Shown here piece by piece: positions 31,511 to 62,372 of a stretch of 64,000 nt of DNA. Below the pieces are notes generated by a model that was not told where the DNA came from, did not search any database, and saw nothing but the letters and a program-made list of their open reading frames with translations. The translations under genes and the position numbers were made by a program. Each line of letters begins with the position of its first letter. Within the stretch, counting starts at the first letter, position 1. The stretch is from a virus (taxonomy: Duplodnaviria; Heunggongvirae; Uroviricota; Caudoviricetes): the IMG/VR virus record IMGVR_UViG_3300042991_000725, positions 59,632 to 123,631 of that record; one strand, written 5' to 3'.

Positions 31511-31604
31511 AATGGTTATATTGATGTCATGTATCGGGGTCGCGTCAGCTTTTATTTATTGTGCTATAAAGTCAAACAATAGCTCTAAGGAGAACAAAGA
31601 ATGA
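31494..31604 (+). CDS. small single-TM peptide (36 aa), tandem copy 2
   Basis: MIRVIEMVILMSCIGVASAFIYCAIKSNNSSKENKE; its stop overlaps the SPFH gene start (ATGA). Confidence 0.45.
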   Translation: MIRVIEMVILMSCIGVASAFIYCAIKSNNSSKENKE

Positions 31605-32416
31605 ATGATACTCGAAAGATCATTGGAATCAGTTGTGCATTTGTTGGTATCGTTGCCCTTCTTGTCGTTATTTTCTGCTCATGGGGTACGATTGACGCCG
31701 GACATAGGGGCGTTGTCCTAAGTATGGGCAAAGTCACGGGAGAGATAAAAGGCGAAGGATTTTATACAAAGATCCCGTGGATAGTTTCTGTTGTTGAAGC
31801 GGATATCAGGATGCAAAAAGAGCAGGTCGAAACAGAAGGTGCGAGTAAAGACTTGCAAACAGTCAAGGCTGATATTGCTTTGAATCTATCAATTGAACCT
31901 TCTAAATGCGCAGATCTTTATCAGTCAATTGGGAGGGACTATTTGGATAAATTTGTGGCCCCGTCAATGCAAGAGTCCATAAAGGCCGTTCTCGCTCAAT
32001 TTACTGCAGAAGAGCTTATTTCAAAAAGGGAGTGTGTGCGCGAATCAATGGGGAATCTTTTATCTTCCAAGCTGGCCCCTGTTGGTATCAAAACCTCTGC
32101 ACTAAATATTGTGGATCTTGATTTTAGTCCATCGTTCAATAGCGCGATTGAGGCCAAAGTCACAGCGGAACAAAACGCGCTTGCCGCAAAAAACTTATTG
32201 GCACAGAAGGAATTTGAGGCACAGCAGCTTATTGCTACGGCTAAGGGCAAGGCCGAAGCCATGCAAATTGAAAGTGCGGCGTTGGCAAAAAATCCACAGG
32301 TACTTCAACTCCGTGCTCTTGAAAAGTGGAACGGCGTTCTACCGCATGTTATGAGCGGCGATGTGGTTCCATTTATTGACATCACAGAAAAACAAGATAA
32401 TGTTATTAAGCGGTAA
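31601..32416 (+). CDS. SPFH/band-7 (prohibitin/HflC-like) membrane protein
   Basis: N-terminal TM helix, then GHRGVVLSMGKV...EGFYTKIPWI...DIRMQ SPFH signature, and a C-terminal Ala/Gln-rich coiled coil. Confidence 0.8.
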   Translation: MNDTRKIIGISCAFVGIVALLVVIFCSWGTIDAGHRGVVLSMGKVTGEIKGEGFYTKIPWIVSVVEADIRMQKEQVETEGASKDLQTVKADIALNLSIEPSKCADLYQSIGRDYLDKFVAPSMQESIKAVLAQFTAEELISKRECVRESMGNLLSSKLAPVGIKTSALNIVDLDFSPSFNSAIEAKVTAEQNALAAKNLLAQKEFEAQQLIATAKGKAEAMQIESAALAKNPQVLQLRALEKWNGVLPHVMSGDVVPFIDITEKQDNVIKR

Positions 32417-33021: not shown

Positions 33022-34230
33022 ATGAAGTATTATAATGGAAATGACGCACTTGTAATAAAAAGTTGGTGCAATAATCCAGAAGATTCGGCCCTTGATCAAG
33101 CCAAGAATTTAGCCAAATTGCCGTTTGCTTATGGCAGTATTTGTTTGATGCCAGATACACATGCTGGTTACGGAATGCCCATAGGTGGAGTTCTCGCCAC
33201 CAAAGATGTTGTAATTCCTAATGCTGTTGGGGTAGATGTGGGATGTGGAATGTGTGTAGCAAAAACAAATTTACATGATTTATCAACGGATACTATCAAA
33301 CGTATTGTGGGAGAAATTAGAAAGGTTGTTCCGCTTGGATTTAACCATCACAAAGAGCCTCAACCAAAATCGCTGATGCCAGAAGGAGACTTGTATTATC
33401 AAGAATACTACAATAATTATTTTGATAAAATGTTTATTTGTGAAAGAAATCATGACAAGGCAAGAGAGTCTCTTGGAACGCTGGGCGGAGGCAATCATTT
33501 TATTGAGATACAAAAAGACAGCAGAGGGATTGTATGGATTATGATTCATTCTGGATCTCGTAATTTAGGCAAACAGGTTGCCGATCATTACAATAGGTTG
33601 GCGATAGAATTAAATGAATCATATTATAGCAATGTTCCAAAAGAATGGCAATTGGCTTTTTTGCCTATAAATTTTGAAGAAGGCGAAAAATATATACAGG
33701 AAATGGATTATTGCGTCAAGTACGCCAAGGCTAATAGAAAGTTGATGATGACAAGAATAATGCAGTGTTTTGTTGATATTATTCCTGATTGCTTATTTTC
33801 TTCTATTGACGGGAACACTGTTCTTGATGTTGTTCATAATTATGCTAGAATGGAAAATCATTTCGGACACAATTTAATGGTTCATCGAAAAGGTGCTACT
33901 TCTGCAAGAAAAGACGAATATGGGATTATACCGGGATCACAAGGGACTGCGAGCTATATAGTCAAGGGGCTTGGCAATCCAGATAGTTTCATGTCTTGTT
34001 CCCATGGCGCTGGCCGTAAAATGGGCAGGAAAGAAGCCAAGCGAACCCTTAATTTGGATTCAGAAAAGAAGAAGCTTGACGATTTGGGAATTGTCCACGG
34101 CATACGCAGCGTTGACGATTTAGAAGAGGCTTGTAGTGCATATAAAGATATTGATGTGGTTATGGAAGAGCAAAAAGATCTTGTGGAAATCGTTGAGCGT
34201 CTTAAACCTCTTGGCCTTATTAAGGGATAA
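33022..34230 (+). CDS. rtcB: RNA-splicing ligase RtcB (3'-phosphate/5'-OH RNA ligase)
   Basis: 402 aa; CLMPDTHAGYGMPIGGV, GGGNHFIEIQ, IHSGSRNLGKQ and CSHGAGRKM match the RtcB metal/GTP-binding motifs. Confidence 0.85.
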   Translation: MKYYNGNDALVIKSWCNNPEDSALDQAKNLAKLPFAYGSICLMPDTHAGYGMPIGGVLATKDVVIPNAVGVDVGCGMCVAKTNLHDLSTDTIKRIVGEIRKVVPLGFNHHKEPQPKSLMPEGDLYYQEYYNNYFDKMFICERNHDKARESLGTLGGGNHFIEIQKDSRGIVWIMIHSGSRNLGKQVADHYNRLAIELNESYYSNVPKEWQLAFLPINFEEGEKYIQEMDYCVKYAKANRKLMMTRIMQCFVDIIPDCLFSSIDGNTVLDVVHNYARMENHFGHNLMVHRKGATSARKDEYGIIPGSQGTASYIVKGLGNPDSFMSCSHGAGRKMGRKEAKRTLNLDSEKKKLDDLGIVHGIRSVDDLEEACSAYKDIDVVMEEQKDLVEIVERLKPLGLIKG

Positions 34231-34600: not shown

Positions 34601-35422
34601 TTGATGGTTATGGAGAATCCAAATAGCTTATCCACCAAATGTGTTTTCCGAGACGATGAATCTGGCATTTGGCTTTATCAGACCAATTGCATTGAATTTA
34701 TGGATATACTTGCTGCTAAATTCCCTGAAGGCAAGTTCGATATGATTTTTGCCGATCCGCCATATTTTTTATCTAACGGAGGGTTTACCTGCCACACGGG
34801 GAAGATGGTGGCGGTCAATAAGGGGGAATGGGATAAATCCAATGGACCGGAGATGAATCATAAATTTAATATGGAGTGGCTTTCAAGGTGCCAGAATGTT
34901 CTAAAACCAAATGGAACCTTATGGGTGTCTGGGACACACCATGTGATCCATTCTGTAGGTCATGCCATGCAACAACTGGGGATGAAAATCCTTAATAACA
35001 TTACTTGGTTGAAACCAAATCCGCCTCCGAACCTTTCTTGCCGCTATTTTACTCATTCTACGGAAACAATAATCTGGGCTGCGAAAACAGAAAAATCAAA
35101 GCATTGTTTCAATTATGGAGAAATGCGTGAAAGCAATAATGGCAAACAGATGAAATCCGTATGGTCTTTCTCTGTGCCTAACAAAAAGGAAAAGGAATTT
35201 GGGAAACATCCTACTCAAAAGCCGATTGCTCTCTTAGAAAGAATTATCCTATCATCAACGAGTGAAGGCAATTTAATCTTTGATCCTTTTGCAGGCAGTT
35301 CTACTACTGGTGTATCAGCAATACAAACACATCGTAAATTTGTAGGGACGGAACTTAAAACAGAATTTATCAATCTGTCTATTGCTCGATTAAAACATGC
35401 GATAGGTATCCGCGAAAGATAA
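34601..35422 (+). CDS. DNA N6-adenine/N4-cytosine methyltransferase (beta-class amino-MTase)
   Basis: DMIFADPPY (motif IV) precedes the C-terminal FDPFAGSSTTG (motif I), the beta-class order. Confidence 0.8.
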   Translation: MMVMENPNSLSTKCVFRDDESGIWLYQTNCIEFMDILAAKFPEGKFDMIFADPPYFLSNGGFTCHTGKMVAVNKGEWDKSNGPEMNHKFNMEWLSRCQNVLKPNGTLWVSGTHHVIHSVGHAMQQLGMKILNNITWLKPNPPPNLSCRYFTHSTETIIWAAKTEKSKHCFNYGEMRESNNGKQMKSVWSFSVPNKKEKEFGKHPTQKPIALLERIILSSTSEGNLIFDPFAGSSTTGVSAIQTHRKFVGTELKTEFINLSIARLKHAIGIRER

Positions 35423-35514
35423 CGCAATACCCAGGGATCAAGCATGATAATGCAGAACCACGACCCGTAGCTAATCAATGGATGTTACGACGATAGTAAA
35501 AGGAATGATTCATC

Positions 35515-36189
35515 ATGAACACTGGAAAAGGCAAGTCTATAATAACGAATTTTGGATGTGATAAGTCGTGTCATTATTGTATTTGGAAATATTCACAACT
35601 GAGGAATTACAAAACTACAATAGACAATACAGACTGGGAAAAGCTATCGAAGTTCATAAAGGGCTCGGATAGCATAAGTATTTCTGGTGGCGGCGACCCT
35701 CTTTATAATATTGACGGAAATTGGGCATGGTTCAAGGAGTTCTTTACCAGGGCTAAATCCTATCATGTCAAACTTCACACCGCAGTTATTTTGCCACAAG
35801 ACAAAAGTTTTTATTATGGTAGCTTTAATAAGATTGCACTGCATCTGAATTATAAAGAATTCAAACACAATCTTGACAGGGTTTTTTCTCTACATGAGAA
35901 TATTAGGCTAGTTTTCGTATTGTCGGAGAACGATTTGTCCAAGAACAGGGTAAGTGAGATATGCGAAATATGTGCTGATAAGTCTGTTCAGTTAAGTTTT
36001 AGAGAATTGTTTATCCCTGATAAGACAAAGTCTAGATTGCAGAGTGTGCTTGAAATTAATACGAAGGAAATAGTTAAGAGCAAATACAGTTCTTTCGCCA
36101 AATTTGTCGAACAGGCCGACTATAATATTTATTATATGCCAGACAATTCTATAAGAACAAAATTTTTGGAGAATGCCCATGCAATTTAA
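35515..36189 (+). CDS. QueE-like radical SAM protein (7-carboxy-7-deazaguanine synthase family, B. subtilis type)
   Basis: 224 aa; FGCDKSCHYC (cf. QueE GCDYSCSWC) and ISISGGGDPL (cf. VTISGGNP SAM-binding loop). Confidence 0.5.
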   Translation: MNTGKGKSIITNFGCDKSCHYCIWKYSQLRNYKTTIDNTDWEKLSKFIKGSDSISISGGGDPLYNIDGNWAWFKEFFTRAKSYHVKLHTAVILPQDKSFYYGSFNKIALHLNYKEFKHNLDRVFSLHENIRLVFVLSENDLSKNRVSEICEICADKSVQLSFRELFIPDKTKSRLQSVLEINTKEIVKSKYSSFAKFVEQADYNIYYMPDNSIRTKFLENAHAI

Positions 36190-37165
36190 GAATGCTTTTT
36201 ATCTCCCAAGCGGTAGGGTATTTTTGCTTGATTGTGACGGATTTCCTGTTGAATGTACAGAAATGAGAGATGTTACTGTCGGTGGGAAGGACCATGAAGA
36301 AGTACGAACATCTAACGACCCGCATGTGATTTGGAATCACTTAAAGCCATATAATGAAAAATGGCTGCTTACAGTATCTACGCAGAAGGGCTGCCCACAT
36401 AAATGCAAGTTTTGTGATGTCGCAGGGCTTGGCTTTAGCGGCAATTTAACTGTTGAACAAATCTTGGAGCAAGTTTCTTTCATCCTGGATGCTTCTCCGT
36501 ATGTGCAAAATTGCTCTAAAGTCAAAATAGGATTTGCTAGAATGGGAGAGCCGTCACATAATTTGACAAATGTTCTTAATGCCATGAAGATGCTACCATC
36601 AATCTCTTCTAGCAAAAGTAGAGTTTTCACATGGCTGCCATGCTTTAATAGTATTCTGCCCAAGAAAACAATAGATGGACGGTCAGCATACGATGTGATA
36701 GAAAGAGTTTTAGCTATGAAGGATTGGTATAATGGATTCCTCCACTTCCAAATCTCGGCAAATTCTACAGACGAGAATATTAGGAAGCAGCTTTTCGGTG
36801 GTGCCGATGTCTTGGGCTTGGAAGAAATTGTCAAATATATCAATGGAAAGTCGATTACTAATAGGACAATTACGCTGAATTTTATAGTAATAGATGGAGT
36901 CCCTATTGATGTAAAATATCTAAAGAGTATTGGCGTTAATGGCAGCAAATTTAACATTAAGCTGATCCCATTAAACAATACGGAGCGCGGGATCATCAAT
37001 AACTTGAAGACATATGCCAATTATACCAATTATGATAAACTGATTGATTTGGGAGATGAAATACGGAAGGAAGGCATTCCTGTTGTCGTAGATGCTATAG
37101 CAAAATGTGAAGAGGCCGGGTTATGTTGCGGACAGTTGGCTCATATATATGCGAAAAATAATTAA
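36173..37165 (+). CDS. RlmN/Cfr-family radical SAM RNA methyltransferase
   Basis: STQKGCPHKCKFCDVAGLGFSGNLTVEQILEQV parallels RlmN [33 protein letters not shown]; C-terminal CCGQLA parallels the RlmN ACGQLAG (second catalytic Cys). Confidence 0.7.
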   Translation: MPMQFKNAFYLPSGRVFLLDCDGFPVECTEMRDVTVGGKDHEEVRTSNDPHVIWNHLKPYNEKWLLTVSTQKGCPHKCKFCDVAGLGFSGNLTVEQILEQVSFILDASPYVQNCSKVKIGFARMGEPSHNLTNVLNAMKMLPSISSSKSRVFTWLPCFNSILPKKTIDGRSAYDVIERVLAMKDWYNGFLHFQISANSTDENIRKQLFGGADVLGLEEIVKYINGKSITNRTITLNFIVIDGVPIDVKYLKSIGVNGSKFNIKLIPLNNTERGIINNLKTYANYTNYDKLIDLGDEIRKEGIPVVVDAIAKCEEAGLCCGQLAHIYAKNN

Positions 37166-37174
37166 TTTTTTCTA

Positions 37175-37202
37175 TTGACAAAATCTGGTTTAGGTGTATA
37201 CT
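37175..37202 (+). promoter_or_regulatory. sigma70-type promoter (TTGACA-16-TATACT)
   Basis: TTGACA at 37175-37180 and TATACT at 37197-37202. Confidence 0.55.
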
Positions 37203-37208
37203 AATAAT

Positions 37209-37409
37209 AGCTTCTTACTCTTTTATAGGGGTGCGCTTTCCGTGAGATTGAAGCAATCCATATTTACCTATCTCGATATGGCCATTACGTCCCCCGGACT
37301 AGGGGAACGAACATGGTCAGTCCATCGAAATTTGGGTAGGAGAGTGATGGTGGGCTGAGGAAAACGGGAAAACCGAATTCCTCAACTCACCCACGAAAGT
37401 GGGTTTTTT
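37209..37409 (+). ncRNA. candidate ~200-nt structured small RNA / tRNA-operon leader
   Basis: No ORF; bounded by the promoter above and an intrinsic terminator. Internal hairpin CCCCGGACTAGGGG and long-range pairing CCTATCTCGATATGG / CCATCGA...GGTAGG. Confidence 0.4.
37386..37409 (+). terminator. rho-independent terminator
   Basis: CACCCACGAAAGTGGG + TTTTTTG. Confidence 0.6.
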
Positions 37410-37428
37410 GTTTGTAGTAAAAAATCGT

Positions 37429-37504
37429 TCTGGGGTAGCTCAGCTGGTAGAGCGACGGACTGTTAATCCGTTTGTCGCAGGTTCAAATCCTGCTCCCAGA
37501 GCCA
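37429..37504 (+). tRNA. tRNA-Asn (GUU)
   Basis: Acceptor TCTGGGG/TCCCAGA, anticodon loop CU-GUU-AA, T-arm GGTTCAAATCC, CCA encoded. Confidence 0.8.
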
Positions 37505-37511
37505 AAATTAT

Positions 37512-37583
37512 CAGGGTGTGGGCCAATGGCTGGCCACCAGTCTTGGGCACTGGGTCATGCAGGTTCGACTCCTGTCACCCTGA
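37512..37583 (+). tRNA. tRNA-Pro (UGG)
   Basis: Acceptor CAGGGTG/CACCCTG, anticodon stem CCAGT/ACTGG, loop CU-UGG-GC. Confidence 0.75.
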
Positions 37584-37595
37584 TTTAATATGTGC

Positions 37596-37666
37596 GTCCC
37601 TGTGATCTAATGGCAGGATACCAGATTTTCAGTCTGGGTGCAAGGGTTCGATCCCCTTCAGGGATA
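37596..37666 (+). tRNA. tRNA-Glu (UUC)
   Basis: Acceptor GTCCCTG/CAGGGAT, anticodon loop UU-UUC-AG; D-arm TCTAATGGCAGGA homologous to bacterial tRNA-Glu. Confidence 0.75.
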
Positions 37667-37684
37667 TTTGTTCTTTGAAAATGT

Positions 37685-37758
37685 AGCCCATTAACTCAAC
37701 TGGCTAGAGTGCCACTTTTACACGGTGGAAGTTGAAGGCTCGAATCCTTCATGGGCTA
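37685..37758 (+). tRNA. tRNA-Val (UAC)
   Basis: Acceptor AGCCCAT/ATGGGCT, anticodon loop UU-UAC-AC, T-arm GAAGGCTCGAATCCTTC. Confidence 0.7.
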
Positions 37759-37764
37759 TTTAAT

Positions 37765-37838
37765 GCTCGGTTAGTGTAGTGACAACACGCGACACTGTCG
37801 ATGTCGAGTCAGGAGTTTAATTCTCCTACCGAGTGCCA
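37765..37838 (+). tRNA. tRNA-Asp (GUC)
   Basis: Anticodon stem CGACA/TGTCG, loop CU-GUC-GA; CCA encoded. Confidence 0.8.
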
Positions 37839-37865
37839 TTTTTTTCGGGCTATGTGCCCACCAAT

Positions 37866-37936
37866 GGGGACATAACATAATGGGAATGTGTTACCCTTGC
37901 AAGGTAAAAATGTGGTTTCGACTACCACTGTCTCCA
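37866..37936 (+). tRNA. tRNA-Ala (UGC)
   Basis: Acceptor GGGGACA/TGTCTCC with G3:U70 identity pair; anticodon loop CU-UGC-AA. Confidence 0.8.
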
Positions 37937-37985
37937 TTATCTTTTATTTTTTGCTCTTTGACAATATTGCTGTAAAACGTAACAC

Positions 37986-38073
37986 AGAAGCGTAGCCTAA
38001 CGGTAAGGCAGCACTTTGCTAAAGTGCCATGCGTCCACAAGGCGTATTGAGAGTTCAATTCTCTCCGCTTCTG
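37986..38073 (+). tRNA. tRNA-Ser (GCU)
   Basis: Type II; acceptor AGAAGCG/CGCTTCT+G, anticodon loop UU-GCU-AA, long variable arm. Confidence 0.8.
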
Positions 38074-38095
38074 CTTTATAAAACTAGGAGCCCAT

Positions 38096-38815
38096 ATGCA
38101 AACTAATACAATGAAGTGCGAATATGGATGTGGGAATAACGCTTTATACAAGTTGCCTAAAGGCAGATGGTGTTGTTCGACGAGCTTTAATTCGTGTCCT
38201 GCTTCCAGAGAAAAAAACAGAATAGCCGTTCTCGATAGCTATAAAAATGGAAGATCTGGTTATTGGAAAGGCAAAAGTTATCCAAGTTTTGGCAAAAAAT
38301 ATGAAGAAATGTACGGCAAGGACAGGTCTGAAATAATCAAAGATAAAATATCAAAGTCTTTGATTGGCGTTTCTCCGGGCAGAGCAAGTACGGACGAGAA
38401 AGAACAAATAAGAAGATCTCGCATTTCTGCAAAAATGATTCTTAATAAATGTGGCGGGTATAGGTACGGTAGCGGCAGAGGTAAAAAGGGAACATATAAG
38501 GGGTATTGGTGTGATAGTAGTTGGGAGCTAGCCTATGTTATTTATTGTTTAGATCATAGTATCAAAATAAGTAGAAATTGGACAAGGTTTCCTTATGTTT
38601 ATAAAGGCAAGCAGCGTTTTTGGATTCCAGACTTTGTTAAAGAAGATACCTATATCGAGATTAAAGGATATGAGACAAAAAAGGATGAAGCAAAATTCAA
38701 TTATTTTAAAAAGAGCTTGATTATTCTTAAAGAAAAAGAAATGCGTTTTATACTAAGTTATGTTACTGATAAATACGGAAAGGACTATATTTCAATGTAC
38801 GAAAGGAAGAGTTGA
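38096..38815 (+). CDS. zinc-finger + PD-(D/E)xK nuclease domain protein (putative homing endonuclease inside the tRNA array)
   Basis: 239 aa; AGGAG SD; N-terminal CEYGCG...CCSTSFNSC zinc cluster; C-terminal WCDSSWE...PDFVKEDTYIEIKG (D...E-x-K); stop overlaps the 5' end of tRNA-Ser(UGA) by 11 nt. Confidence 0.5.
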   Translation: MQTNTMKCEYGCGNNALYKLPKGRWCCSTSFNSCPASREKNRIAVLDSYKNGRSGYWKGKSYPSFGKKYEEMYGKDRSEIIKDKISKSLIGVSPGRASTDEKEQIRRSRISAKMILNKCGGYRYGSGRGKKGTYKGYWCDSSWELAYVIYCLDHSIKISRNWTRFPYVYKGKQRFWIPDFVKEDTYIEIKGYETKKDEAKFNYFKKSLIILKEKEMRFILSYVTDKYGKDYISMYERKS

Positions 38816-38896
38816 CCACAGTGGGTGCGTGGCCTTGTCTTGAAAACAAGTGCCCATGAAAGTGGGCTGAGAGTTCAAATCTCTCCTCTTCCTCCA
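38805..38896 (+). tRNA. tRNA-Ser (UGA)
   Basis: Type II; acceptor GGAAGAG/CTCTTCC, anticodon stem CTTGT/ACAAG, loop CU-UGA-AA, T-arm GAGAGTTCAAATCTCTC; end taken with encoded CCA. Confidence 0.7.
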
Positions 38897-38898
38897 CT

Positions 38899-38968
38899 GC
38901 CCCGTGGTGTAATTGGAAACGCGCTGGCCTTTGGAGCCGGAGTCTCCCGTTCAAATCGGGACGGGGCA
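38899..38968 (+). tRNA. tRNA-Gln (UUG)
   Basis: Acceptor GCCCCGT/ACGGGGC+A, anticodon loop CU-UUG-GA. Confidence 0.7.
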
Positions 38969-38977
38969 ATTTTATAC

Positions 38978-39049
38978 TGCCCAGTGGTGTAATAGAAACA
39001 TATCGGACTCTGACTCCGAAGACTTCAGGTGCAAGTCCTGACTGGGCAA
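38978..39049 (+). tRNA. tRNA-Gln (CUG)
   Basis: Acceptor TGCCCAG/CTGGGCA+A, anticodon stem TCGGA/TCCGA, loop CU-CUG-AC. Confidence 0.7.
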
Positions 39050-39058
39050 TTTTTATTC

Positions 39059-39142
39059 GCAAGTGTAGCCCGTTATGGAGGCGGATGAGCCTGTAGAGCT
39101 CATATCTTCGGATCATAGAAGGTTCGATTCCTTCCACTTGCA
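39059..39142 (+). tRNA. tRNA-Tyr (GUA)
   Basis: Type II; acceptor GCAAGTG/CACTTGC+A, anticodon stem TGAGC/GCTCA, loop CU-GUA-GA. Confidence 0.8.
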
Positions 39143-39153
39143 TTTTATATTGT

Positions 39154-39226
39154 CGCAGGGTCGCCAAATGGTAAGGCTCCAGACTCATAATCTGGCAATT
39201 TGCTGGTTCGATTCCGGCCCCTGCTA
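39154..39226 (+). tRNA. tRNA-Met or Ile2 (CAU)
   Basis: Anticodon stem CCAGA/TCTGG, loop CU-CAU-AA. Elongator-type (no 3 G-C pairs in anticodon stem); a C1:U72 mismatch is read at the acceptor end, so termini are approximate. Confidence 0.65.
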
Positions 39227-39237
39227 TTTATTTTTAT

Positions 39238-39310
39238 GGTGGCTATAGTGTAGAGGACTGCACGTCTGACTGTGGCTCAGGAAGTCTGGGATCGTTACCC
39301 AGTAGTCACC
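39238..39310 (+). tRNA. tRNA-His (GUG)
   Basis: Encoded extra G(-1) opposite discriminator C73 (His hallmark); acceptor GTGGCTA/TAGTCAC, anticodon loop CU-GUG-GC. Confidence 0.8.
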
Positions 39311-39321
39311 CCATTTTTCTT

Positions 39322-39394
39322 GCGAGTGTAGCTGAATAAGACTAGCACCGGATTTTTAATCCGGGATATGTGGGTGCGAATCCCATCACTCGCA
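39322..39394 (+). tRNA. tRNA-Lys (UUU)
   Basis: Acceptor GCGAGTG/CACTCGC+A, anticodon stem CCGGA/TCCGG, loop UU-UUU-AA. Confidence 0.8.
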
Positions 39395-39399
39395 CTTTT

Positions 39400-39472
39400 G
39401 CGTCTGTAGCTCAATTGGCAGAGCATTTGGTTCTTACCCAAGGGGTTGGAGGTTCAAGTCCTCCCAGACGCA
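39400..39472 (+). tRNA. tRNA-Lys (CUU)
   Basis: Acceptor GCGTCTG/CAGACGC+A, anticodon loop UU-CUU-AC. Confidence 0.7.
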
Positions 39473-39480
39473 TTTTATTT

Positions 39481-39553
39481 GCTGGTGTAGCTTAATGGTT
39501 AAAGCGTCAGCCTTATAAGCTGAAAATCGGTGGTCCAATTCCACCCACCAGTA
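39481..39553 (+). tRNA. tRNA-Ile (UAU)
   Basis: Acceptor GCTGGTG/CACCAGT+A, anticodon stem TCAGC/GCTGA, loop CU-UAU-AA (AUA decoder). Confidence 0.65.
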
Positions 39554-39560
39554 CCATTCT

Positions 39561-39636
39561 GCGCTCATGGTGTAATGGATAACATTTCTGACTACGAATC
39601 AGAAGAGTGCAGGTTCGAGTCCTGCTGGGCGTACCA
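39561..39636 (+). tRNA. tRNA-Arg (ACG)
   Basis: Anticodon stem TCTGA/TCAGA, loop CU-ACG-AA; CCA encoded. Confidence 0.75.
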
Positions 39637-39637
39637 T

Positions 39638-39709
39638 GTGCCTGTGGTGTAATGGATAACATGTCACGGTCCTAACGTGTCGATTTGGGTTCAATTCCCA
39701 ACGGGCATA
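39638..39709 (+). tRNA. tRNA-Arg (CCU)
   Basis: Anticodon stem CACG/CGTG, loop GU-CCU-AA; T-arm TTGGGTTCAATTCCCAA. Confidence 0.65.
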
Positions 39710-39735
39710 TTTACTTTGAAAGGCGGTGATAACCA

Positions 39736-40326
39736 ATGGTTCTAAATGACGCAACTCTTGTTTTGAATAAAGGATGGGTCCCAATCGGCTTCGCTTCAGT
39801 GCGCAGGGCTATGGAACTGTTGGTTACTGATAGGGCACAGGCGATTCTCCCAGACGACTATTCTGTCCATAATTTTGATTCTTGGGCAGATTTAAGGCTG
39901 TTAGACGATGAGATACGAATCCGTACTGTAAGTTTGGAAATAAAAGTTCCTGAGATCATCAGGCTAAATACATATACCGGAGTTCCGCAACACAAACTCA
40001 AGCTTTCTAGGCGCAATCTTTTCCGCAGGGATAATTGTACGTGTCAGTATTGCGGCAAACAACTCAAGAGCGAGGATGCAACTATTGACCATGTCATTCC
40101 GAGAGCATTGGGTGGTAAAACGACTTGGCTCAATTGTGTTATCGCCTGTCTCAAGTGCAATAGCAAAAAAGACGACAAGACGCTGGCTCAGTGTGGGATG
40201 AGATTGATAAAAATTCCTGTTGCACCTAATGGAATGGCAAGTATACGGATTCCTGTATTTAAGAAGAGGATCAGTTGGGATAAGTTTATTTCAGAAGCGT
40301 ATTGGAATATTGAACTTCTTGAATAG
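39736..40326 (+). CDS. HNH endonuclease (putative homing endonuclease inside the tRNA array)
   Basis: 196 aa; CQYCGK...DHVIPRALGG...N...CLKCN HNH motif with flanking zinc-ligand Cys pairs. Confidence 0.75.
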   Translation: MVLNDATLVLNKGWVPIGFASVRRAMELLVTDRAQAILPDDYSVHNFDSWADLRLLDDEIRIRTVSLEIKVPEIIRLNTYTGVPQHKLKLSRRNLFRRDNCTCQYCGKQLKSEDATIDHVIPRALGGKTTWLNCVIACLKCNSKKDDKTLAQCGMRLIKIPVAPNGMASIRIPVFKKRISWDKFISEAYWNIELLE

Positions 40327-40358
40327 GAGTTAAGCAGACAAACGTTTCGAATAAGCAC

Positions 40359-40431
40359 ATGCCCATAGTCTAATTGGATAGGCGCCAGACTTCTAATCTG
40401 GTTTATGAGGGTCCGAGTCCCTCTGGGCATA
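40359..40431 (+). tRNA. tRNA-Arg (UCU)
   Basis: Acceptor ATGCCCA/TGGGCAT+A, anticodon stem CCAGA/TCTGG, loop CU-UCU-AA. Confidence 0.75.
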
Positions 40432-40433
40432 TT

Positions 40434-40507
40434 GCGGGTGTGGCTCAGTGGTAGAGCGCGACGTTGCCATCGTCGATGCGAGGGTCCGATTCCCTTCACT
40501 CGCTCCA
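40434..40507 (+). tRNA. tRNA-Gly (GCC)
   Basis: Acceptor GCGGGTG/CACTCGC, anticodon stem CGACG/CGTCG, loop UU-GCC-AU; CCA encoded. Confidence 0.8.
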
Positions 40508-40508
40508 A

Positions 40509-40582
40509 GCGCCTGTGGTGAAATGGCATCACGAGAGTCTTCCAAACTCTAGTCCCGGGTTCAATCCCCGGTAGGCGCTCCA
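40509..40582 (+). tRNA. tRNA-Gly (UCC)
   Basis: Anticodon stem AGAGT/ACTCT, loop CU-UCC-AA; CCA encoded. Confidence 0.8.
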
Positions 40583-40594
40583 TTTTTTTTATAC

Positions 40595-40665
40595 GCTTGG
40601 ATAGCTCAACGGTAAGGCATCTGGTTGAAGCCCAGAAAATGCAAGTTCAATTCTTGCTCCAAGCA
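40595..40665 (+). tRNA. tRNA-Phe (GAA)
   Basis: Acceptor GCTTGGA/TCCAAGC+A, anticodon stem TCTGG/CCAGA, loop UU-GAA-GC. Confidence 0.8.
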
Positions 40666-40670
40666 TTTAT

Positions 40671-40744
40671 ACGGGTGTAGTGTAGTGAAAACATTTCAGA
40701 CTCCAAATCTGAAGACAGGGGTTCGATTCCTCTCGCCCGTGCCA
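40671..40744 (+). tRNA. tRNA-Trp (CCA)
   Basis: Anticodon stem TCAGA/TCTGA, loop CU-CCA-AA; CCA end encoded. Confidence 0.75.
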
Positions 40745-40847
40745 TGCTATAAATCGTATGTGGGGAGAATAAAAATGATCGTTAGAGCTGGAATGAATTA
40801 TGCCGATGCTGGAAGAATTGGATATTTGAAAGGGAAAAGTTATTAAT

Positions 40848-40919
40848 GCCCGATAAGCGTAGATGCCGACGCAGGACCCTTGTAAGGTTCAGAGGCTGGT
40901 TGAAGTCCAGCATCGGGCT
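40848..40919 (+). tRNA. tRNA-Thr (UGU)
   Basis: Acceptor GCCCGAT/ATCGGGC, anticodon stem GGACC/GGTTC, loop CU-UGU-AA, T-arm GCTGGTTGAAGTCCAGC. Confidence 0.7.
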
Positions 40920-40930
40920 TTTATTTATAC

Positions 40931-41001
40931 GCTGTTATAGCTTAGTGGCAAAGCAGGGCTTTCGTAAAGCTCAGACGTTGGTTCGATTCCAACTAGCAGC
41001 T
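40931..41001 (+). tRNA. tRNA-Thr (CGU)
   Basis: Acceptor GCTGTTA/TAGCAGC, anticodon loop UU-CGU-AA. Confidence 0.7.
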
Positions 41002-41006
41002 TTTGT

Positions 41007-41079
41007 GCCGCCATAGCTCAGTTAGAAGAGCGCATTCTTGGTAAGAATGAGGTCGTGAGTGCAAATCTCGCTGGTGGCT
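41007..41079 (+). tRNA. tRNA-Thr (GGU)
   Basis: Acceptor GCCGCCA/TGGTGGC, anticodon stem CATTC/GAATG, loop UU-GGU-AA. Confidence 0.75.
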
Positions 41080-41084
41080 TTTAT

Positions 41085-41156
41085 GCACGAGTAGCCAAGT
41101 GGCTAAGGCGGCAAGCTGCAACCTTGCTAATATGGGTTCGATTCCCATCTCGTGCT
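41085..41156 (+). tRNA. tRNA-Cys (GCA)
   Basis: Acceptor GCACGAG/CTCGTGC, anticodon stem GCAAG/CTTGC, loop CU-GCA-AC. Confidence 0.8.
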
Positions 41157-41163
41157 TATTTGT

Positions 41164-41249
41164 GGCCAAGTGGCGGAATGGCAGACGCGAGAGTTTCAAA
41201 AGCTCTTGTCCATACACGGACACTGTGGGTTCAAGTCCCACCTTGGCTA
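41164..41249 (+). tRNA. tRNA-Leu (CAA)
   Basis: Type II with long variable arm; anticodon stem AGAGT/GCTCT, loop UU-CAA-AA; T-arm GTGGGTTCAAGTCCCAC. Confidence 0.7.
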
Positions 41250-41255
41250 TTTTAT

Positions 41256-41329
41256 GGCGCCATAGCCCAACGGCAGGAGGCATCTCGCTTAGAACGAGAG
41301 CAGTGCTGGTTCGAGTCCGGCTGGCGTTA
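41256..41329 (+). tRNA. tRNA with anticodon UAG (Leu-type anticodon, atypical short variable arm)
   Basis: Anticodon stem TCTCG/CGAGA, loop CU-UAG-AA; variable region only 5 nt (GCAGT); T-arm GCTGGTTCGAGTCCGGC; acceptor has two G:U pairs. Confidence 0.55.
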
Positions 41330-41342
41330 TTTTTTCAAATCT

Positions 41343-41414
41343 GCGGATATAGCTCAGCAGTAGAGTTCTTGTCTGATAAGCAAGAGGTCGAAGGTGCGAT
41401 TCCTTCTATCCGCA
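41343..41414 (+). tRNA. tRNA-Ile (GAU)
   Basis: Acceptor GCGGATA/TATCCGC+A, anticodon stem CTTGT/GCAAG, loop CU-GAU-AA. Confidence 0.8.
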
Positions 41415-41495
41415 TTTTATATTTTGTAATAGTGGCAGCGATTGCCTTTAACTATATCAATGCTACTTGTGGCACCAGTGAATTGCCAACTGCCA

Positions 41496-45802: not shown

Positions 45803-46100
45803 TTTCCGTCCTCTTTTTTCTTATCCATAATTTGCATATTCCAAACTGATTAATTCGTCTTCCGTTTGTCCAATGTTCCCACATGGCCCTTTGTTCTTTA
45901 AGCATCTGTTGCTCTGCCCTATTAAACGGTTCATTCATTTCTACTGATCCGCATAATGGACGCTCTCCGTTGTTTGCTGAACAAAAACACTTGCTATTTA
46001 TATCTAGGTCTTTGTATTCAAAAAACCACTTACAATTCCAACAGCCATCTTGTTTTTTATACGACCTATCTAATTTATAGAGCTTTGTTTGTTTTGCCAT
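45783..46100 (-). CDS. Cys-rich hypothetical protein
   Basis: 105-aa ORF. Confidence 0.4.
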   Translation of the reverse strand: MAKQTKLYKLDRSYKKQDGCWNCKWFFEYKDLDINSKCFCSANNGERPLCGSVEMNEPFNRAEQQMLKEQRAMWEHWTNGRRINQFGICKLWIRKKRTENEDTKK

Positions 46101-47319
46101 AATTTAAAAACCTTTCAGCTATTTGTGGTTTAACATATGATTTAAGTCCTCTTCGTATGCCATTGATTAATACATCGGTTAGTTCTGGACCTCCACGTTT
46201 AAGTGCCATAAGAAGCCTATATGTAGTTTCTGTTTGCCCACAACGCCCAAAGCAATTGTATTCGATAAAACGCTTAGCGTCTTTAATAAACCCATTATCT
46301 TGCAGTACTGTCGCCCATCGAATAACAAATTCTTTTTTGGCGTCAAAGTCGACCAGCGGCGCGTTTTCAAGCGGCGTTCTTGAAGATGGTTGAAAGTTGG
46401 TAATGCTGAAATCAATACGTATGTTGTGGGAGCAACCTTTTCTCATTTGTCCGATGATATTTACCCAATTATACCATTCTTGATAATTGTCGTTTGGCAG
46501 TCCGTATATGAGATAAAAATGCAGAGTTGTCATATATGACATCATTTTTTGTATAGAATCTAACATAAAATCATTAGTAAAACCTTTCCCGATGCGCTTA
46601 CGCGTTTGTTCATCGAAGCTTTCTATTCCAGTGCGAACATTCTTTTGTAAATAATTTTGATATTTTATAATATTATTAATATAGAACATACATGTGTCTG
46701 AGTTAGCGACGAATATTTTTTTTGACATGGCATACTGGATAAGTTCATCAAACTTCGAGTAACCGGCAAAATTGGCAGACATAAAATTTACCGTCCTTGC
46801 CCCGTTTTTTACAAGCCAATCTATTTGTTTTTTGGCAAGATTCAGTTGTTTTTCTCTGTACTTGCACGTATTCCAAGAATATTCACAAAATGCACACTTA
46901 AGCCTGCAGCCTCTGGTTAATTCTATAATGCCGTTTTTATTGTTATTAATGAACGGATTCGTTACTATTTCATCTTTATTTTCTTTGTAATCATATTCGC
47001 CGCAAAACGTGCTATCAACAATGTCTTTTAATATCCAGTTATTGCCTATGCCTTGACCTCCAGCGATAATAACCGGCAGTCCATTGCGCCTATTTTTGAG
47101 AGGCTCAATCTTATTAATTCGTAAAAACGCCATTGCATTTATTATTTGTAATGGATAAAATATGTTAAATCCAATTGCGCTATATTGTTCCCAGTTTACT
47201 TTTTTGCTCCATTTTATTACATCGGCATTCCAAGAATCTTTTACTATTTGTAGGCCGAAATTTACTGTGTTTACTTGTTCAAGGTCGTATGGAGTTGTGT
47301 CTACTATTAGTGTTTTCAT
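46075..47319 (-). CDS. radical SAM protein with N-terminal B12-binding-like domain
   Basis: 414 aa; N-terminal ~150 aa Rossmann-like (VIIAGGQGIGN); core ELTRGCRLKCAFCEY = CxxxCxxC. Confidence 0.55.
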   Translation of the reverse strand: MKTLIVDTTPYDLEQVNTVNFGLQIVKDSWNADVIKWSKKVNWEQYSAIGFNIFYPLQIINAMAFLRINKIEPLKNRRNGLPVIIAGGQGIGNNWILKDIVDSTFCGEYDYKENKDEIVTNPFINNNKNGIIELTRGCRLKCAFCEYSWNTCKYREKQLNLAKKQIDWLVKNGARTVNFMSANFAGYSKFDELIQYAMSKKIFVANSDTCMFYINNIIKYQNYLQKNVRTGIESFDEQTRKRIGKGFTNDFMLDSIQKMMSYMTTLHFYLIYGLPNDNYQEWYNWVNIIGQMRKGCSHNIRIDFSITNFQPSSRTPLENAPLVDFDAKKEFVIRWATVLQDNGFIKDAKRFIEYNCFGRCGQTETTYRLLMALKRGGPELTDVLINGIRRGLKSYVKPQIAERFLNYGKTNKAL

Positions 47320-48288: not shown

Positions 48289-48491
48289 TTTTTGCCCCCG
48301 TCTGTATGCTTTAATACAAGTGCATTATAAATAGAGTCGTTATTAATGTCTGAACTATAGTTCAAATATTCCTTCTTCGTCCGCTTATAGAATAGCTTTA
48401 TATTATCCCCATATATTTTTCTAATATCGCTGGAAACGCTCCATAACTTTTTAACAGCTTTTCTAATTATCTTTGCTTTTTTTTCGTTCAT
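48285..48491 (-). CDS. hypothetical protein
   Basis: 68-aa basic ORF. Confidence 0.35.
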   Translation of the reverse strand: MNEKKAKIIRKAVKKLWSVSSDIRKIYGDNIKLFYKRTKKEYLNYSSDINNDSIYNALVLKHTDGGKK

Positions 48492-60536: not shown

Positions 60537-60546
60537 GGAGTTCGGC

Positions 60547-61311: not shown

Positions 61312-61312
61312 G

Positions 61313-62370: not shown

Positions 62371-62372
62371 TT

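What the first reader, a model, noticed from the sequence alone, without database searches (positions are those of the whole stretch)
34601..37410. QueE-like and RlmN/Cfr-like radical SAM enzymes plus an amino-MTase immediately upstream of the tRNA array
36173..37165 has the RlmN/Cfr hallmarks: GCxxxCKFC followed by GF..NLTV.EI..QV, and C-terminal CGQLA. RlmN makes m2A at A37 of tRNAs as well as on rRNA, so a phage copy just upstream of 32 tRNA genes plausibly modifies phage or host tRNA (or confers Cfr-like ribosome methylation). 35515..36189 resembles B. subtilis-type QueE (GCDxSCxxC, ISGGxP), an enzyme of the 7-deazaguanine pathway used for queuosine in tRNA and for deazaguanine DNA modification in phages. 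QueC/QueD/FolE/DpdA are not in the window, so the pathway context is unresolved.
Basis: partly seen in the sequence, partly recalled or inferred. Interest (0 to 1): 0.65.

Follow-up and report, generated by a model that had tools for sequence, protein, structure and literature searches.

The report
Phage radical-SAM gene pair linked to NAD
Two adjacent phage genes encode a conserved pair of radical-SAM enzymes, one with the RlmN/Cfr fold but lacking two features that RNA-methylating RlmN needs and one of an unnamed family that is not QueE, and in related phages this pair sits inside or is fused to NAD-salvage genes rather than next to tRNAs.

Summary
The three ORFs and the quoted motifs are real. 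The 273-aa protein is an ordinary N6/N4 DNA methyltransferase.

The 330-aa protein has the RlmN/Cfr fold (Foldseek E 1e-14). It keeps the CxxxCxxC cluster and the C-terminal CGQL cysteine. It is not a canonical RlmN/Cfr: TIGR00048 scores 61.7 bits against a cut-off of 290, the N-terminal RNA-binding domain is missing, and the resolving cysteine (E. coli C118) is an invariant threonine.

The two genes form a cassette. Of 121 relatives, 109 have the partner within 1.4 kb on the same strand. In 10 the flank is too short to tell, and 2 lack it.

tRNA arrays lie nearby in only 5 of 61 dereplicated loci. NAD/ADP-ribose genes lie within 5 kb or are fused in 23 of 61, and are about 7-fold denser in the nearest 2.5 kb. 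These include NMNAT, NAPRTase, nicotinamidase, NadE, NUDIX, NAD-dependent ligase, Macro and NADAR. NMNAT is fused to the partner in six lineages.

Best reading: a two-step radical tailoring pathway acting on a pyridine or adenine nucleotide. The chemistry is inferred, not shown. No description was found in the searched literature.

The parts
35515..36189 (+). Partner radical-SAM enzyme, 224 aa: a minimal single-cluster radical-SAM core of a large unnamed family. It is not QueE.
35557..35580 (+). CxxxCxxC [4Fe-4S]/SAM motif of the partner enzyme (C15, C19, C22)
   Evidence: Read directly from the sequence. All three cysteines are at least 90% conserved in alignment A2.
35683..35700 (+). SGGGDP motif (residues 57-62), at the position of the radical-SAM GGE SAM-binding motif
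   Evidence: S57, G58, G59 and G60 are invariant, and D61 and P62 at least 90% conserved, in A2.
36173..37165 (+). Radical-SAM enzyme with the RlmN/Cfr fold (class A methylase type), 330 aa. The JGI gene call starts at 36179.
   Evidence: TIGR00048 5.7e-17, 61.7 bits against a 290-bit cut-off. PDB RlmN 1e-8. AF2 pLDDT 90.9. The Foldseek top 10 are all RlmN, E 1e-14 to 1e-11, and the next radical-SAM hit is at 2e-4. The family has 407 homologues, the top 120 at 60% identity or more.
36371..36373 (+). Thr67, at the position of the resolving cysteine of RlmN (C118) and Cfr (C105)
   Evidence: Profile alignment to PDB RlmN gives LCVSSQVGC against LTVSTQkGC. T67 is invariant in 34 family members. 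The distant viral clades and the cellular fusion proteins also lack a Cys here, whereas true RlmN representatives keep it.
36392..36415 (+). CxxxCxxC radical-SAM cluster motif (C74, C78, C81)
   Evidence: Invariant in A1 and aligned to the RlmN cluster motif.
36641..36643 (+). Cys157 in WLPCFN, an invariant extra cysteine specific to this clade. I inferred it as a candidate substitute for the missing resolving cysteine.
   Evidence: Invariant in A1. It is Val in the distant clade. By my reading of the sequences, not by a tool alignment, it corresponds to the RlmN beta-strand TLSTSG.
37106..37138 (+). C-terminal cysteine loop KCEEAGLCCGQL. C319 is the equivalent of the methyl-carrying C355 of RlmN. 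C312 and C318 are additional invariant cysteines.
   Evidence: Invariant in A1. The CGQL motif is shared with true RlmN representatives. pLDDT is lower here (60-76), as expected for a mobile loop.
34601..35422 (+). N6/N4 (beta-class, DPPY) DNA methyltransferase. It is a neighbour, not part of the conserved cassette.
   Evidence: PF01555 4.6e-56. The CcrM model gives 221.8 bits against an 830-bit cut-off. phrog_67 2.9e-63. A methyltransferase of this family lies within 5 kb in only 6 of 85 dereplicated loci.
37429..41415 (+). Array of 29 tRNA genes, interrupted by a 239-aa ORF and an HNH endonuclease. It is a neighbour in this phage only.
   Evidence: ARAGORN and HNH Pfam hits. Only 5 of 61 dereplicated loci have 3 or more tRNAs within 5 kb of the cassette.

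Best explanation
Window 35515-37165 is a self-contained two-gene radical-SAM cassette. It occurs in many large, mostly uncultivated phages from metagenomes.

Gene 2 has the RlmN/Cfr fold. It keeps the SAM-cleaving cluster and the C-terminal cysteine that RlmN first methylates. It has lost the N-terminal RNA-binding domain and the cysteine that releases the product.

Gene 1 is a minimal radical-SAM enzyme of an unnamed family.

I infer that the pair tailors a small heteroaromatic nucleotide of the NAD pathway (NaMN, NMN, NaAD, NAD+ or an ADP-ribose derivative), not tRNA or rRNA.

Proposed mechanism; every step is inferred:
1. C319 takes a methyl group from SAM.
2. A 5'-deoxyadenosyl radical from a second SAM turns that methyl into a Cys-S-CH2 radical.
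3. The radical adds to an electron-poor ring carbon of the adenine or pyridine ring.
4. A clade-specific cysteine (C157, C312 or C318) or another base resolves the adduct, leaving a C-methyl group.
5. The partner enzyme performs a second radical step on the same nucleotide. NMNAT, which is adjacent or fused to it in other phages, supplies or consumes that nucleotide.

Shown here: the fold, the motif pattern, the obligate pairing, and the association and fusions with NAD genes. Not shown: the substrate, the product, and any benefit to the phage.
For: Fold and family:
- The Foldseek top 10 are all RlmN, E 1e-14 to 1e-11, against 2e-4 for the next radical-SAM enzyme.
- The profile hit is real but far below the family cut-off.

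Motifs:
- C74, C78, C81 and C319 are invariant.
- T67 replaces the resolving cysteine.
- C157, C312 and C318 are also invariant.
- The profile match to RlmN starts at residue ~58, and the preceding 57 residues are modelled as beta-hairpins plus short helices.

Pairing:
- The partner is within 300 bp on the same strand in 100 of 121 relatives and within 1.4 kb in 9 more.
- Only 2 lack it despite adequate flanks.
- Both gene orders occur.
- By sequence clustering of 21 viral loci, no other neighbour recurred in more than 4.

NAD link:
- The recurrent neighbour clusters within 5 kb include NUDIX, NAPRTase, an NMNAT-like gene, isochorismatase, NAD synthase, NAD-dependent DNA ligase, Macro and NADAR.
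- Density of such genes is 1.26 per 10 kb at 0-2.5 kb, against 0.18, 0.18 and 0 further out.
- 23 of 61 dereplicated loci have one within 5 kb or fused.
- An NMNAT::partner fusion occurs in 6 dereplicated lineages. Both nucleotidyltransferase motifs (HxGH; a SxTxxR-like motif) are visible in the two fusion proteins I read, P0155 and P0171.
- Co-directional gene strings place the pair inside NAD genes:
  - NAPRTase-nicotinamidase-NadE-NUDIX-[pair]-NMNAT-NUDIX in L074 and L091.
  - NUDIX-82 aa-NAMPT-[pair] in L046.
  - nicotinamidase-NadE-[pair]-PRTase in L047.

Wider superfamily lacking the resolving cysteine:
- It contains fusions to isochorismatase, to a thioredoxin-reductase-like flavoprotein, and to a QueT transporter plus a nucleoside phosphorylase/nucleosidase domain. 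One of the last sits in a bacterial chromosome.
- These fit a small-molecule substrate and a need for thiol or electron recycling.

tRNA adjacency is rare, at 5 of 61 loci.
Against: - No NAD-related gene was found in the 64 kb of this window with my probes and partial Pfam scans. Here the pair sits between RtcB, a DNA methyltransferase and the tRNA array.
- 38 of 61 dereplicated loci show no NAD/ADP-ribose gene within 5 kb.
- Large phages gather auxiliary genes in islands, so some co-location could be incidental.
- The HMMs used for the density test were built from neighbours found within 5 kb, which biases detection towards the near zone. The 2.5-5 kb bin lies inside that range and is already low.
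- The only chemistry known for this fold is RNA adenine methylation.
- No radical-SAM step is known in NAD metabolism (my own knowledge).
- The partners in the full NAD operons (L074, L078, L091) are a second, 240-266 aa type that is only distantly related to the window's partner.
Confidence: 0.42

Rival explanations
1. The 330-aa protein is a phage RlmN/Cfr that methylates C2 or C8 of A37 in tRNAs, or A2503 in 23S rRNA. Its position next to the tRNA array reflects that function.
For: RlmN/Cfr are the only significant named families and the best fold match. The cluster and the CGQL cysteine are conserved. In this window the gene lies 264 nt upstream of 29 tRNA genes and near RtcB. tRNA arrays are also close in L011, L049, L065 and L115.
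Against: The score is 61.7 bits against a 290-bit cut-off. The resolving cysteine, indispensable in RlmN and Cfr, is an invariant Thr. The N-terminal helical domain of RlmN has no counterpart. The enzyme needs a second radical-SAM partner that RlmN and Cfr do not have. Only 5 of 61 loci have a tRNA array nearby, against 23 of 61 with NAD/ADP-ribose genes.
Confidence: 0.18
2. The pair modifies phage DNA or its precursors, by C-methylation of a purine or a deazapurine-type pathway, to evade restriction. It would work alongside the adjacent DNA methyltransferase.
For: In this window the pair follows a DNA methyltransferase. N6/N4 methyltransferases, SSB and HD-domain genes recur near the pair. 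In L001 the pair sits in a replication module (topoisomerase, SNF2 helicase, SSB) and is followed by a PTPS/QueD-like gene. One copy carries an intein; by my own knowledge, inteins are often found in replication and nucleotide-metabolism genes.
Against: QueE membership fails. PTPS is adjacent in one lineage only. No QueC, FolE or DpdA was seen. Methyltransferases are abundant in these genomes, with three in this window, and occur near the pair in only 6 of 85 loci. Nothing here indicates DNA binding.
Confidence: 0.1
3. The enzyme is a natural single-turnover cross-linker. Without the resolving cysteine, it becomes covalently attached through C319-CH2 to its target. The target could be host RNA, as in the RlmN C118A mutant, or a nucleotide. 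The result would be to inactivate the target or to make a protein- or peptide-nucleotide conjugate.
For: Loss of C118 in RlmN traps the covalent protein-RNA adduct. All viral and fusion relatives lack that cysteine. In Vibrio phage D479 and Moorella phage MTATph1 the cysteine loop is a separate small ORF, duplicated in tandem in D479, like a detachable carrier peptide.
Against: The clade has three extra invariant cysteines that could resolve the adduct. Fusions to a thioredoxin-reductase-like domain suggest redox recycling and therefore turnover. There is no direct evidence for any adduct.
Confidence: 0.07
4. The NAD association is only co-location in an auxiliary-gene island. The pair acts on some other substrate, such as a cofactor, a sugar nucleotide or a peptide.
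For: Most loci have no NAD gene nearby, this window included. Extra radical-SAM genes join the pair in some phages: a B12-binding type in L091 and L115, and further ones in L046. That pattern resembles natural-product or cofactor pathways. The partner's fold has no specific nearest relative.
Against: Independent domain fusions are hard to explain by co-location: NMNAT to the partner, and isochorismatase to RlmN-like proteins. The density of NAD genes falls sharply beyond 2.5 kb.
Confidence: 0.2

Closest known systems
RlmN / Cfr (class A radical-SAM methylases; TIGR00048, TIGR04432; PDB 3RFA, 5HR7, 6FZ6)
   Same: Same fold (Foldseek E 1e-14, TM 0.6-0.67). Same CxxxCxxC cluster followed by a G-F-x-x-N-L motif. 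Same beta-extension before the cluster. Same C-terminal CGQL loop with the methyl-carrying cysteine.
   Different: About 18% identity. No N-terminal helical RNA-binding domain. The resolving cysteine (C118/C105) is replaced by Thr. It has extra invariant cysteines (C157, C312, C318). It needs an adjacent second radical-SAM gene. Its genomic partners are NAD/ADP-ribose genes, not translation genes.
QueE (7-carboxy-7-deazaguanine synthase)
   Same: The 224-aa partner is of similar size and has a single radical-SAM cluster. One related phage (L001) has a PTPS/QueD-like gene next to the pair.
Viperin and other minimal radical-SAM nucleotide enzymes (PFL-AE/NrdG activases, MoaA)
Phage NAD+ salvage modules (NAMPT + NMNAT/Nudix; Preiss-Handler genes PncA-PncB-NadD-NadE). 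The names and roles come from my own knowledge; no paper on them was read here.
   Same: In many relatives the pair is embedded in, or fused to, these genes.
   Different: To my knowledge no radical-SAM enzyme is part of any described NAD salvage or reconstitution pathway. The window itself shows none of these genes.

Membership tests
RlmN/Cfr (class A radical-SAM RNA methylases) | CxxxCxxC radical-SAM cluster in the conserved sequence context | tested here: met
   C74, C78 and C81 are invariant in A1 and align to the RlmN motif.
RlmN/Cfr (class A radical-SAM RNA methylases) | Methyl-carrying cysteine in the C-terminal loop (E. coli C355; CGQL) | tested here: met
   C319 in CCGQLA is invariant. 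The same motif is present in true RlmN representatives.
RlmN/Cfr (class A radical-SAM RNA methylases) | Resolving cysteine before the cluster (RlmN C118, Cfr C105), indispensable for turnover | tested here: not met
   The aligned position is Thr67, invariant in 34 of 34 sequences. The requirement is stated in PMC9692996.
RlmN/Cfr (class A radical-SAM RNA methylases) | N-terminal helical (HhH-like) RNA-binding domain | tested here: not met
   The TIGR00048 match covers model positions 99-342 and protein residues 58-322 only. Residues 1-57 are modelled as three beta-strands plus short helices.
RlmN/Cfr (class A radical-SAM RNA methylases) | Score above the curated family cut-off | tested here: not met
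   TIGR00048 gives 61.7 bits against 290. The Cfr models give 41-45 bits against 468-550.
RlmN/Cfr (class A radical-SAM RNA methylases) | RlmN-type three-dimensional fold | tested here: met
   The Foldseek PDB top 10 are all RlmN, E 1e-14 to 1e-11.
RlmN/Cfr (class A radical-SAM RNA methylases) | Methylates adenine C2 or C8 in rRNA or tRNA | not testable with these tools
   Needs biochemistry. The gene context does not favour it.
QueE (7-carboxy-7-deazaguanine synthase) | Match to QueE family profiles above cut-off | tested here: not met
   TIGR03365 gives 12.5 bits against 206.1. PHROG QueE-like gives 8e-5, against 5e-24 for an unknown-function PHROG.
QueE (7-carboxy-7-deazaguanine synthase) | QueE is the nearest fold | tested here: not met
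QueE (7-carboxy-7-deazaguanine synthase) | Pathway partners (FolE, QueD, QueC, DpdA/Tgt) in the neighbourhood | tested here: not met
   A PTPS probe found a match only in L001/L005 and none in the window. None of these appear among the recurrent neighbours. QueC, FolE and DpdA were not probed separately.
Glycyl-radical activating enzymes (PFL-AE, NrdG) | Match to family profiles above cut-off | tested here: not met
N6/N4 amino DNA methyltransferases (PF01555) | Full-length domain match above cut-off, with a DPPY catalytic motif | tested here: met
   190.7 bits against a 26.7-bit cut-off, covering profile positions 2-219 of 221. FADPPYF is visible in the sequence. Target sequence and base were not determined.

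The most novel reading that the evidence does not exclude
The cassette makes a C-methylated, or otherwise radically tailored, pyridine dinucleotide: an NAD+ analogue. This would let the phage keep NAD-dependent functions running, or escape or poison NAD-consuming host defences. It would be the first small-molecule substrate for the RlmN/Cfr fold and the first radical-SAM step in NAD metabolism. The wider relatives lacking the resolving cysteine, fused to nicotinamidase, a thioredoxin-reductase-like domain, or a transporter plus nucleosidase, would then be a cellular pathway for C-methylating free pyridine or purine bases.
Probability: 0.15. Interest if true: 0.9.

Novelty: new variant of a known kind. 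Interest (0 to 1): 0.7.

Why it matters
To my knowledge, RlmN and Cfr are the only characterised members of their radical-SAM methylase class, and both act on RNA. This work points to a large sister group, 42 clusters at 50% identity with E at or below 1e-30 and about 500 at or below 1e-10, found in phages and bacteria. Every member I examined keeps the methyl-carrying cysteine and lacks the resolving cysteine and the RNA-binding domain.

Its gene fusions point to small heteroaromatic substrates rather than RNA: NMNAT on the partner, and nicotinamidase, a thioredoxin-reductase-like domain, or a QueT transporter plus nucleosidase on the enzyme itself.

If the NAD link holds, it adds an unknown branch to phage NAD metabolism. 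By my own knowledge, that area is of current interest because many anti-phage systems act by depleting NAD+.

The practical point for annotation is that calls such as '23S rRNA (adenine2503-C2)-methyltransferase', already attached to these proteins by JGI, and 'QueE-like' are probably wrong. They should not be read as evidence for phage tRNA or rRNA methylation, Cfr-type antibiotic resistance, or deazaguanine DNA.

Tried and rejected
- Nucleotide search against 50,697 phage records found nothing. The phage is known only from metagenomes. The exact 330-aa and 224-aa proteins are on record from a 154,404-bp JGI contig, and the same gene string is on an 11,220-bp Logan contig.
- A single-sequence locus search found only one viral locus, so an alignment was needed.
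- QueE, PFL-AE and NrdG assignments for the 224-aa protein were rejected on profile scores and fold ranks.
- A functional link to tRNAs and RtcB was rejected as a general rule. Only 5 of 61 loci have a tRNA array, and 4 of 85 representative loci have RtcB within 10 kb.
- The window's third radical-SAM gene (46075-47319, minus strand) was tested as a possible third component. It shows no BLAST similarity to the B12-type radical-SAM genes inserted in the cassette elsewhere.
- Net charge and pI of both families are about neutral and say nothing about nucleic-acid binding.
- The AFDB50 fold library was not available.
- Seven literature searches found no paper on phage RlmN-like enzymes, on radical-SAM enzymes in NAD metabolism, or on this gene pair. 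Subscription journals are not covered.
- I could not inspect model coordinates, so the distances of C157, C312 and C318 from the active site were not checked.
Full report
**What is there**

The stretch 34601-37410 holds three co-directional ORFs:
- a 273-aa protein at 34601-35422
- a 224-aa protein at 35515-36189
- a 330-aa protein at 36173-37165

The last two overlap by 17 nt. RtcB (33022-34230) and a 79-aa ORF lie upstream. An array of 29 tRNA genes starts 264 nt downstream. The region has about 38% G+C and shows no compositional break across the three genes.

**The methyltransferase**

The 273-aa protein is a full-length PF01555 N6/N4 DNA methyltransferase (4.6e-56) with a DPPY motif. Its closest curated model is CcrM, well below that model's cut-off. 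It is ordinary. The window has at least two more DNA methyltransferases.

**The 330-aa protein**

RlmN and Cfr are the only named families it matches: TIGR00048 at 5.7e-17, and PDB RlmN at 1e-8. The score is 61.7 bits against a curated cut-off of 290.

A model built on 34 homologues is confident (pLDDT 90.9). Its ten best PDB matches are all RlmN, at E 1e-14 to 1e-11, ten orders of magnitude ahead of any other radical-SAM enzyme. So the fold assignment is sound.

The family is tight, with 68% mean column identity:
- Invariant: the cluster cysteines C74, C78 and C81, and the C-terminal KCEEAGLCCGQL, whose C319 aligns with the methyl-carrying C355 of RlmN.
- The position of the resolving cysteine is an invariant Thr67: LCVSSQVGC in RlmN against LTVSTQKGC here. 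That cysteine is 'indispensable in resolving the crosslink' in RlmN (C118) and Cfr (C105) (PMC9692996).
- The profile match starts at residue ~58. The first 57 residues are modelled as beta-hairpins plus short helices, not the helical N-terminal domain of RlmN.
- C157, C312 and C318 are extra invariant cysteines.

Two defining features of RlmN/Cfr are therefore tested and not met. The protein works on the RlmN scaffold but should not be filed as RlmN or Cfr.

**The 224-aa protein**

Pfam radical-SAM hits are below threshold. NCBIfam's best hit is NrdG2 at 20.8 bits against 131, and QueE gets 12.5 bits against 206. The best family is a PHROG of unknown function.

The family has more than 1200 members at 90% clustering, none with an informative name. 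Its conserved motifs are SIITNFGCxxxCxYC, ISISGGGDP, HT, an Arg, and DYNxYYMPDN. QueE is not supported.

**The two genes are a cassette**

In 21 viral loci the partner was directly adjacent in 19, with a divergent radical-SAM gene in that position in one more. By sequence clustering, no other neighbour recurred in more than 4 loci.

I enlarged the sample with MAG and metagenome contigs. Across 121 close relatives:

| Position of partner | Relatives |
|---|---|
| Within 300 bp, same strand | 100 (83 downstream, 17 upstream) |
| Within 1.4 kb | 9 |
| Too little flank to tell | 10 |
| Absent despite adequate flanks | 2 |

Where something is inserted between the two genes, it is a homing endonuclease (L129) or a third, B12-binding radical-SAM gene (L091, L115). 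One copy carries an intein. A second type of partner, 240-266 aa, replaces the window type in some lineages.

The nine hits in 'genome' records are MAG contigs assigned to unrelated phyla. I read these as mis-binned phage DNA.

**What travels with the cassette**

tRNA arrays (3 or more tRNAs within 5 kb) occur in only 5 of 61 dereplicated loci with usable flanks. RtcB occurs in 4 of the 85 representative loci.

I clustered 963 neighbour ORFs from 85 dereplicated loci and scanned the recurrent clusters against Pfam:

| Neighbour family | Loci |
|---|---|
| NUDIX | 7 |
| N6/N4 methyltransferase | 6 |
| NAPRTase | 5 |
| stand-alone NMNAT-like | 5 |
| HD domain | 5 |
| SSB | 4 |
| isochorismatase | 4 |
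| NAD synthase | 4 |
| NAD-dependent DNA ligase | 4 |
| Macro | 3 |
| NADAR | 3 |

Eight of these eleven families belong to NAD or ADP-ribose metabolism.

Their density by distance from the cassette:

| Distance from cassette | NAD/ADP-ribose genes per 10 kb |
|---|---|
| 0-2.5 kb | 1.26 |
| 2.5-5 kb | 0.18 |
| 5-7.5 kb | 0.18 |
| 7.5-10 kb | 0 |

In 23 of 61 loci such a gene lies within 5 kb or is fused.

Gene maps show co-directional strings:
- NAPRTase-nicotinamidase-NadE-NUDIX-[RlmN-like, partner]-NMNAT-NUDIX in L074 and L091 (L091 has a B12-binding radical-SAM gene between the pair)
- NMNAT-partner-RlmN-like-NUDIX in L058
- NUDIX-82 aa-NAMPT-RlmN-like-NMNAT::partner in L046
- nicotinamidase-NadE-RlmN-like-NMNAT::partner-phosphoribosyltransferase in L047, with a NAD kinase about 5 kb upstream

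The NMNAT-like domain is fused to the N-terminus of the partner in six dereplicated lineages. It is of the NadM type (GRFQPxHxGH), and in the two fusion proteins I read (P0155, P0171) the C-terminal SxTxxR-like motif is also present.

Stand-alone members of the partner family also sit near NAD-related genes. One is near PnuC, NADAR, a NadR-like kinase and NUDIX in a 266-kb phage. Another directly follows a gene with a faint Macro-domain hit.

**The wider family**

A profile search of 1.8 billion representatives finds 42 clusters at E 1e-30 or below and 513 at 1e-10 or below. True RlmN-length proteins appear only at about 80 bits.

Every non-canonical member I aligned lacks the resolving cysteine and keeps the C-terminal Cys. 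True RlmN representatives keep C[IV]S[ST]Q.

This wider set contains three kinds of fusion:
- RlmN-like::isochorismatase, in three clusters
- thioredoxin-reductase-like::RlmN-like, in two clusters
- QueT-transporter::RlmN-like::PNP_UDP_1, of which one sits in a bacterial chromosome beside ffh, ftsY and rnc

A distant viral clade has a gene I judged from its sequence to be flavodoxin-like (not confirmed by a profile search), then an isochorismatase and a NAPRTase (the latter confirmed by homology), directly downstream.

In Vibrio phage D479 and Moorella phage MTATph1 the cysteine loop is a separate small ORF.

These architectures fit an enzyme that acts on a free base, nucleoside or nucleotide and needs electron or thiol recycling.

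**Interpretation**

- Shown: a conserved pair of radical-SAM enzymes; an RlmN fold with a changed cysteine set and no RNA-binding domain; repeated physical and fusion links to NAD/ADP-ribose enzymes.
- Inferred: the pair tailors a pyridine or adenine nucleotide, with the RlmN-like enzyme adding a methyl group to an electron-poor ring carbon through a methyl-cysteine radical, and the partner carrying out a second radical step.
- Not known: the substrate, the product, and the benefit to the phage.

The main caveat is that this window shows no NAD gene in its 64 kb. About 60% of loci have none nearby either. For this phage, then, the NAD reading rests on orthology with the cassettes of other phages.

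The RNA-methylase reading remains possible at about 0.18, DNA modification at about 0.1, a cross-linking role at about 0.07, and incidental co-location with some other substrate at about 0.2.

**Literature**

Seven full-text searches found nothing on this family or on radical-SAM enzymes in NAD metabolism. The library lacks most subscription journals, so 'undescribed' is provisional.

**Verdict**

- The finding is more interesting than a phage copy of RlmN. It is a new variant of the class A radical-SAM methylase scaffold, in an obligate two-enzyme cassette, with a reproducible and unexplained tie to NAD metabolism.

Noticed in passing
L144 4965-6045 (Vibrio phage D479); L143 4830-5792 (Moorella phage MTATph1): In these isolates the RlmN-like gene is split. 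The core ends before the cysteine loop. A separate small ORF carries the 'AACGQ(L/M)' loop: 40 aa in MTATph1, and 93 aa with the loop duplicated in tandem in D479. No partner radical-SAM gene was detected next to them.
   Followed up: partly
P0320, P0354, P0370; P0330, P0391; P0317, P0318, P0334 (L146, L147): Relatives of the RlmN-like protein that lack the resolving cysteine occur as fusions. The fused domains are isochorismatase, a thioredoxin-reductase-like flavoprotein, or a QueT transporter plus a PNP_UDP_1 nucleosidase/phosphorylase domain. P0334 lies in a bacterial chromosome next to ffh, ftsY and rnc.
   Followed up: partly
L091 5668-6873; L115 10927-12327; L046 12202-13425: A B12-binding radical-SAM gene is inserted between the two cassette genes, or lies just beyond them, in three lineages. 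That makes a three-enzyme radical-SAM cluster. L046 has a further 268-aa radical-SAM gene.
   Followed up: partly
window 46075-47319 (-): A third radical-SAM gene in the window: 414 aa, with Radical_SAM 1.5e-17 plus a Radical_SAM_N2 domain. It is not similar by BLAST to the B12-type genes found in cassettes elsewhere. Function unknown.
   Followed up: partly
window 829-1863 (-), 33022-34230 (+), 48463-48993 (-): An RNA-repair gene set: an Rnl-type RNA ligase (phrog_968, 8e-62), RtcB (PF01139, 2e-111), and an AAA_33/KTI12-like P-loop kinase that could be a polynucleotide kinase.
   Followed up: no
window 38096-38815 and 39736-40326 (+): Two ORFs interrupt the tRNA array. One is a 239-aa Cys-rich protein with no Pfam hit, which has a homologue beside the tRNA array of L011. 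The other is an HNH endonuclease.
   Followed up: no
window 55976-63569 (+): A sugar-nucleotide and glycosylation cluster: two GT2 glycosyltransferases, UDP-GlcNAc 2-epimerase, a CMP-sugar-type cytidylyltransferase, an NAD-dependent epimerase/dehydratase, and an aminotransferase. It follows a ribonucleotide reductase large subunit at 53547-55985.
   Followed up: no
window 31601-32416 (+): An SPFH/Band 7 (prohibitin-like) protein lies upstream of RtcB. In Stenotrophomonas and Xanthomonas phages, the region matching the RlmN-like protein is annotated 'prohibitin family protein', which hints at a recurring neighbourhood.
   Followed up: no
L002/L003 13689-16434: In a 199-kb phage, about 5 kb from the cassette, there is a DAHP synthase/chorismate mutase fusion, then a 206-aa ORF, then a U32-peptidase-like gene (faint hit). 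By my own knowledge, that combination recalls prephenate-dependent RNA hydroxylation enzymes.
   Followed up: no
L047 2944-6040 (-): A QRPTase-like gene, a 296-aa radical-SAM gene and an aminotransferase form an operon. It sits on the opposite strand beside the NAD kinase / nicotinamidase / NadE / cassette cluster.
   Followed up: no
L024 8735-10789; L129 5344-6099: Selfish elements target the cassette. L024 has an intein with a LAGLIDADG domain inside the RlmN-like gene. L129 has a GIY-YIG/NUMOD3 homing endonuclease between the two genes.
   Followed up: partly
L001 9589-10257: A 222-aa protein with a C-terminal PTPS/QueD domain directly follows the cassette in a 289-kb phage. This is the only deazaguanine-type neighbour seen in any locus.
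   Followed up: partly
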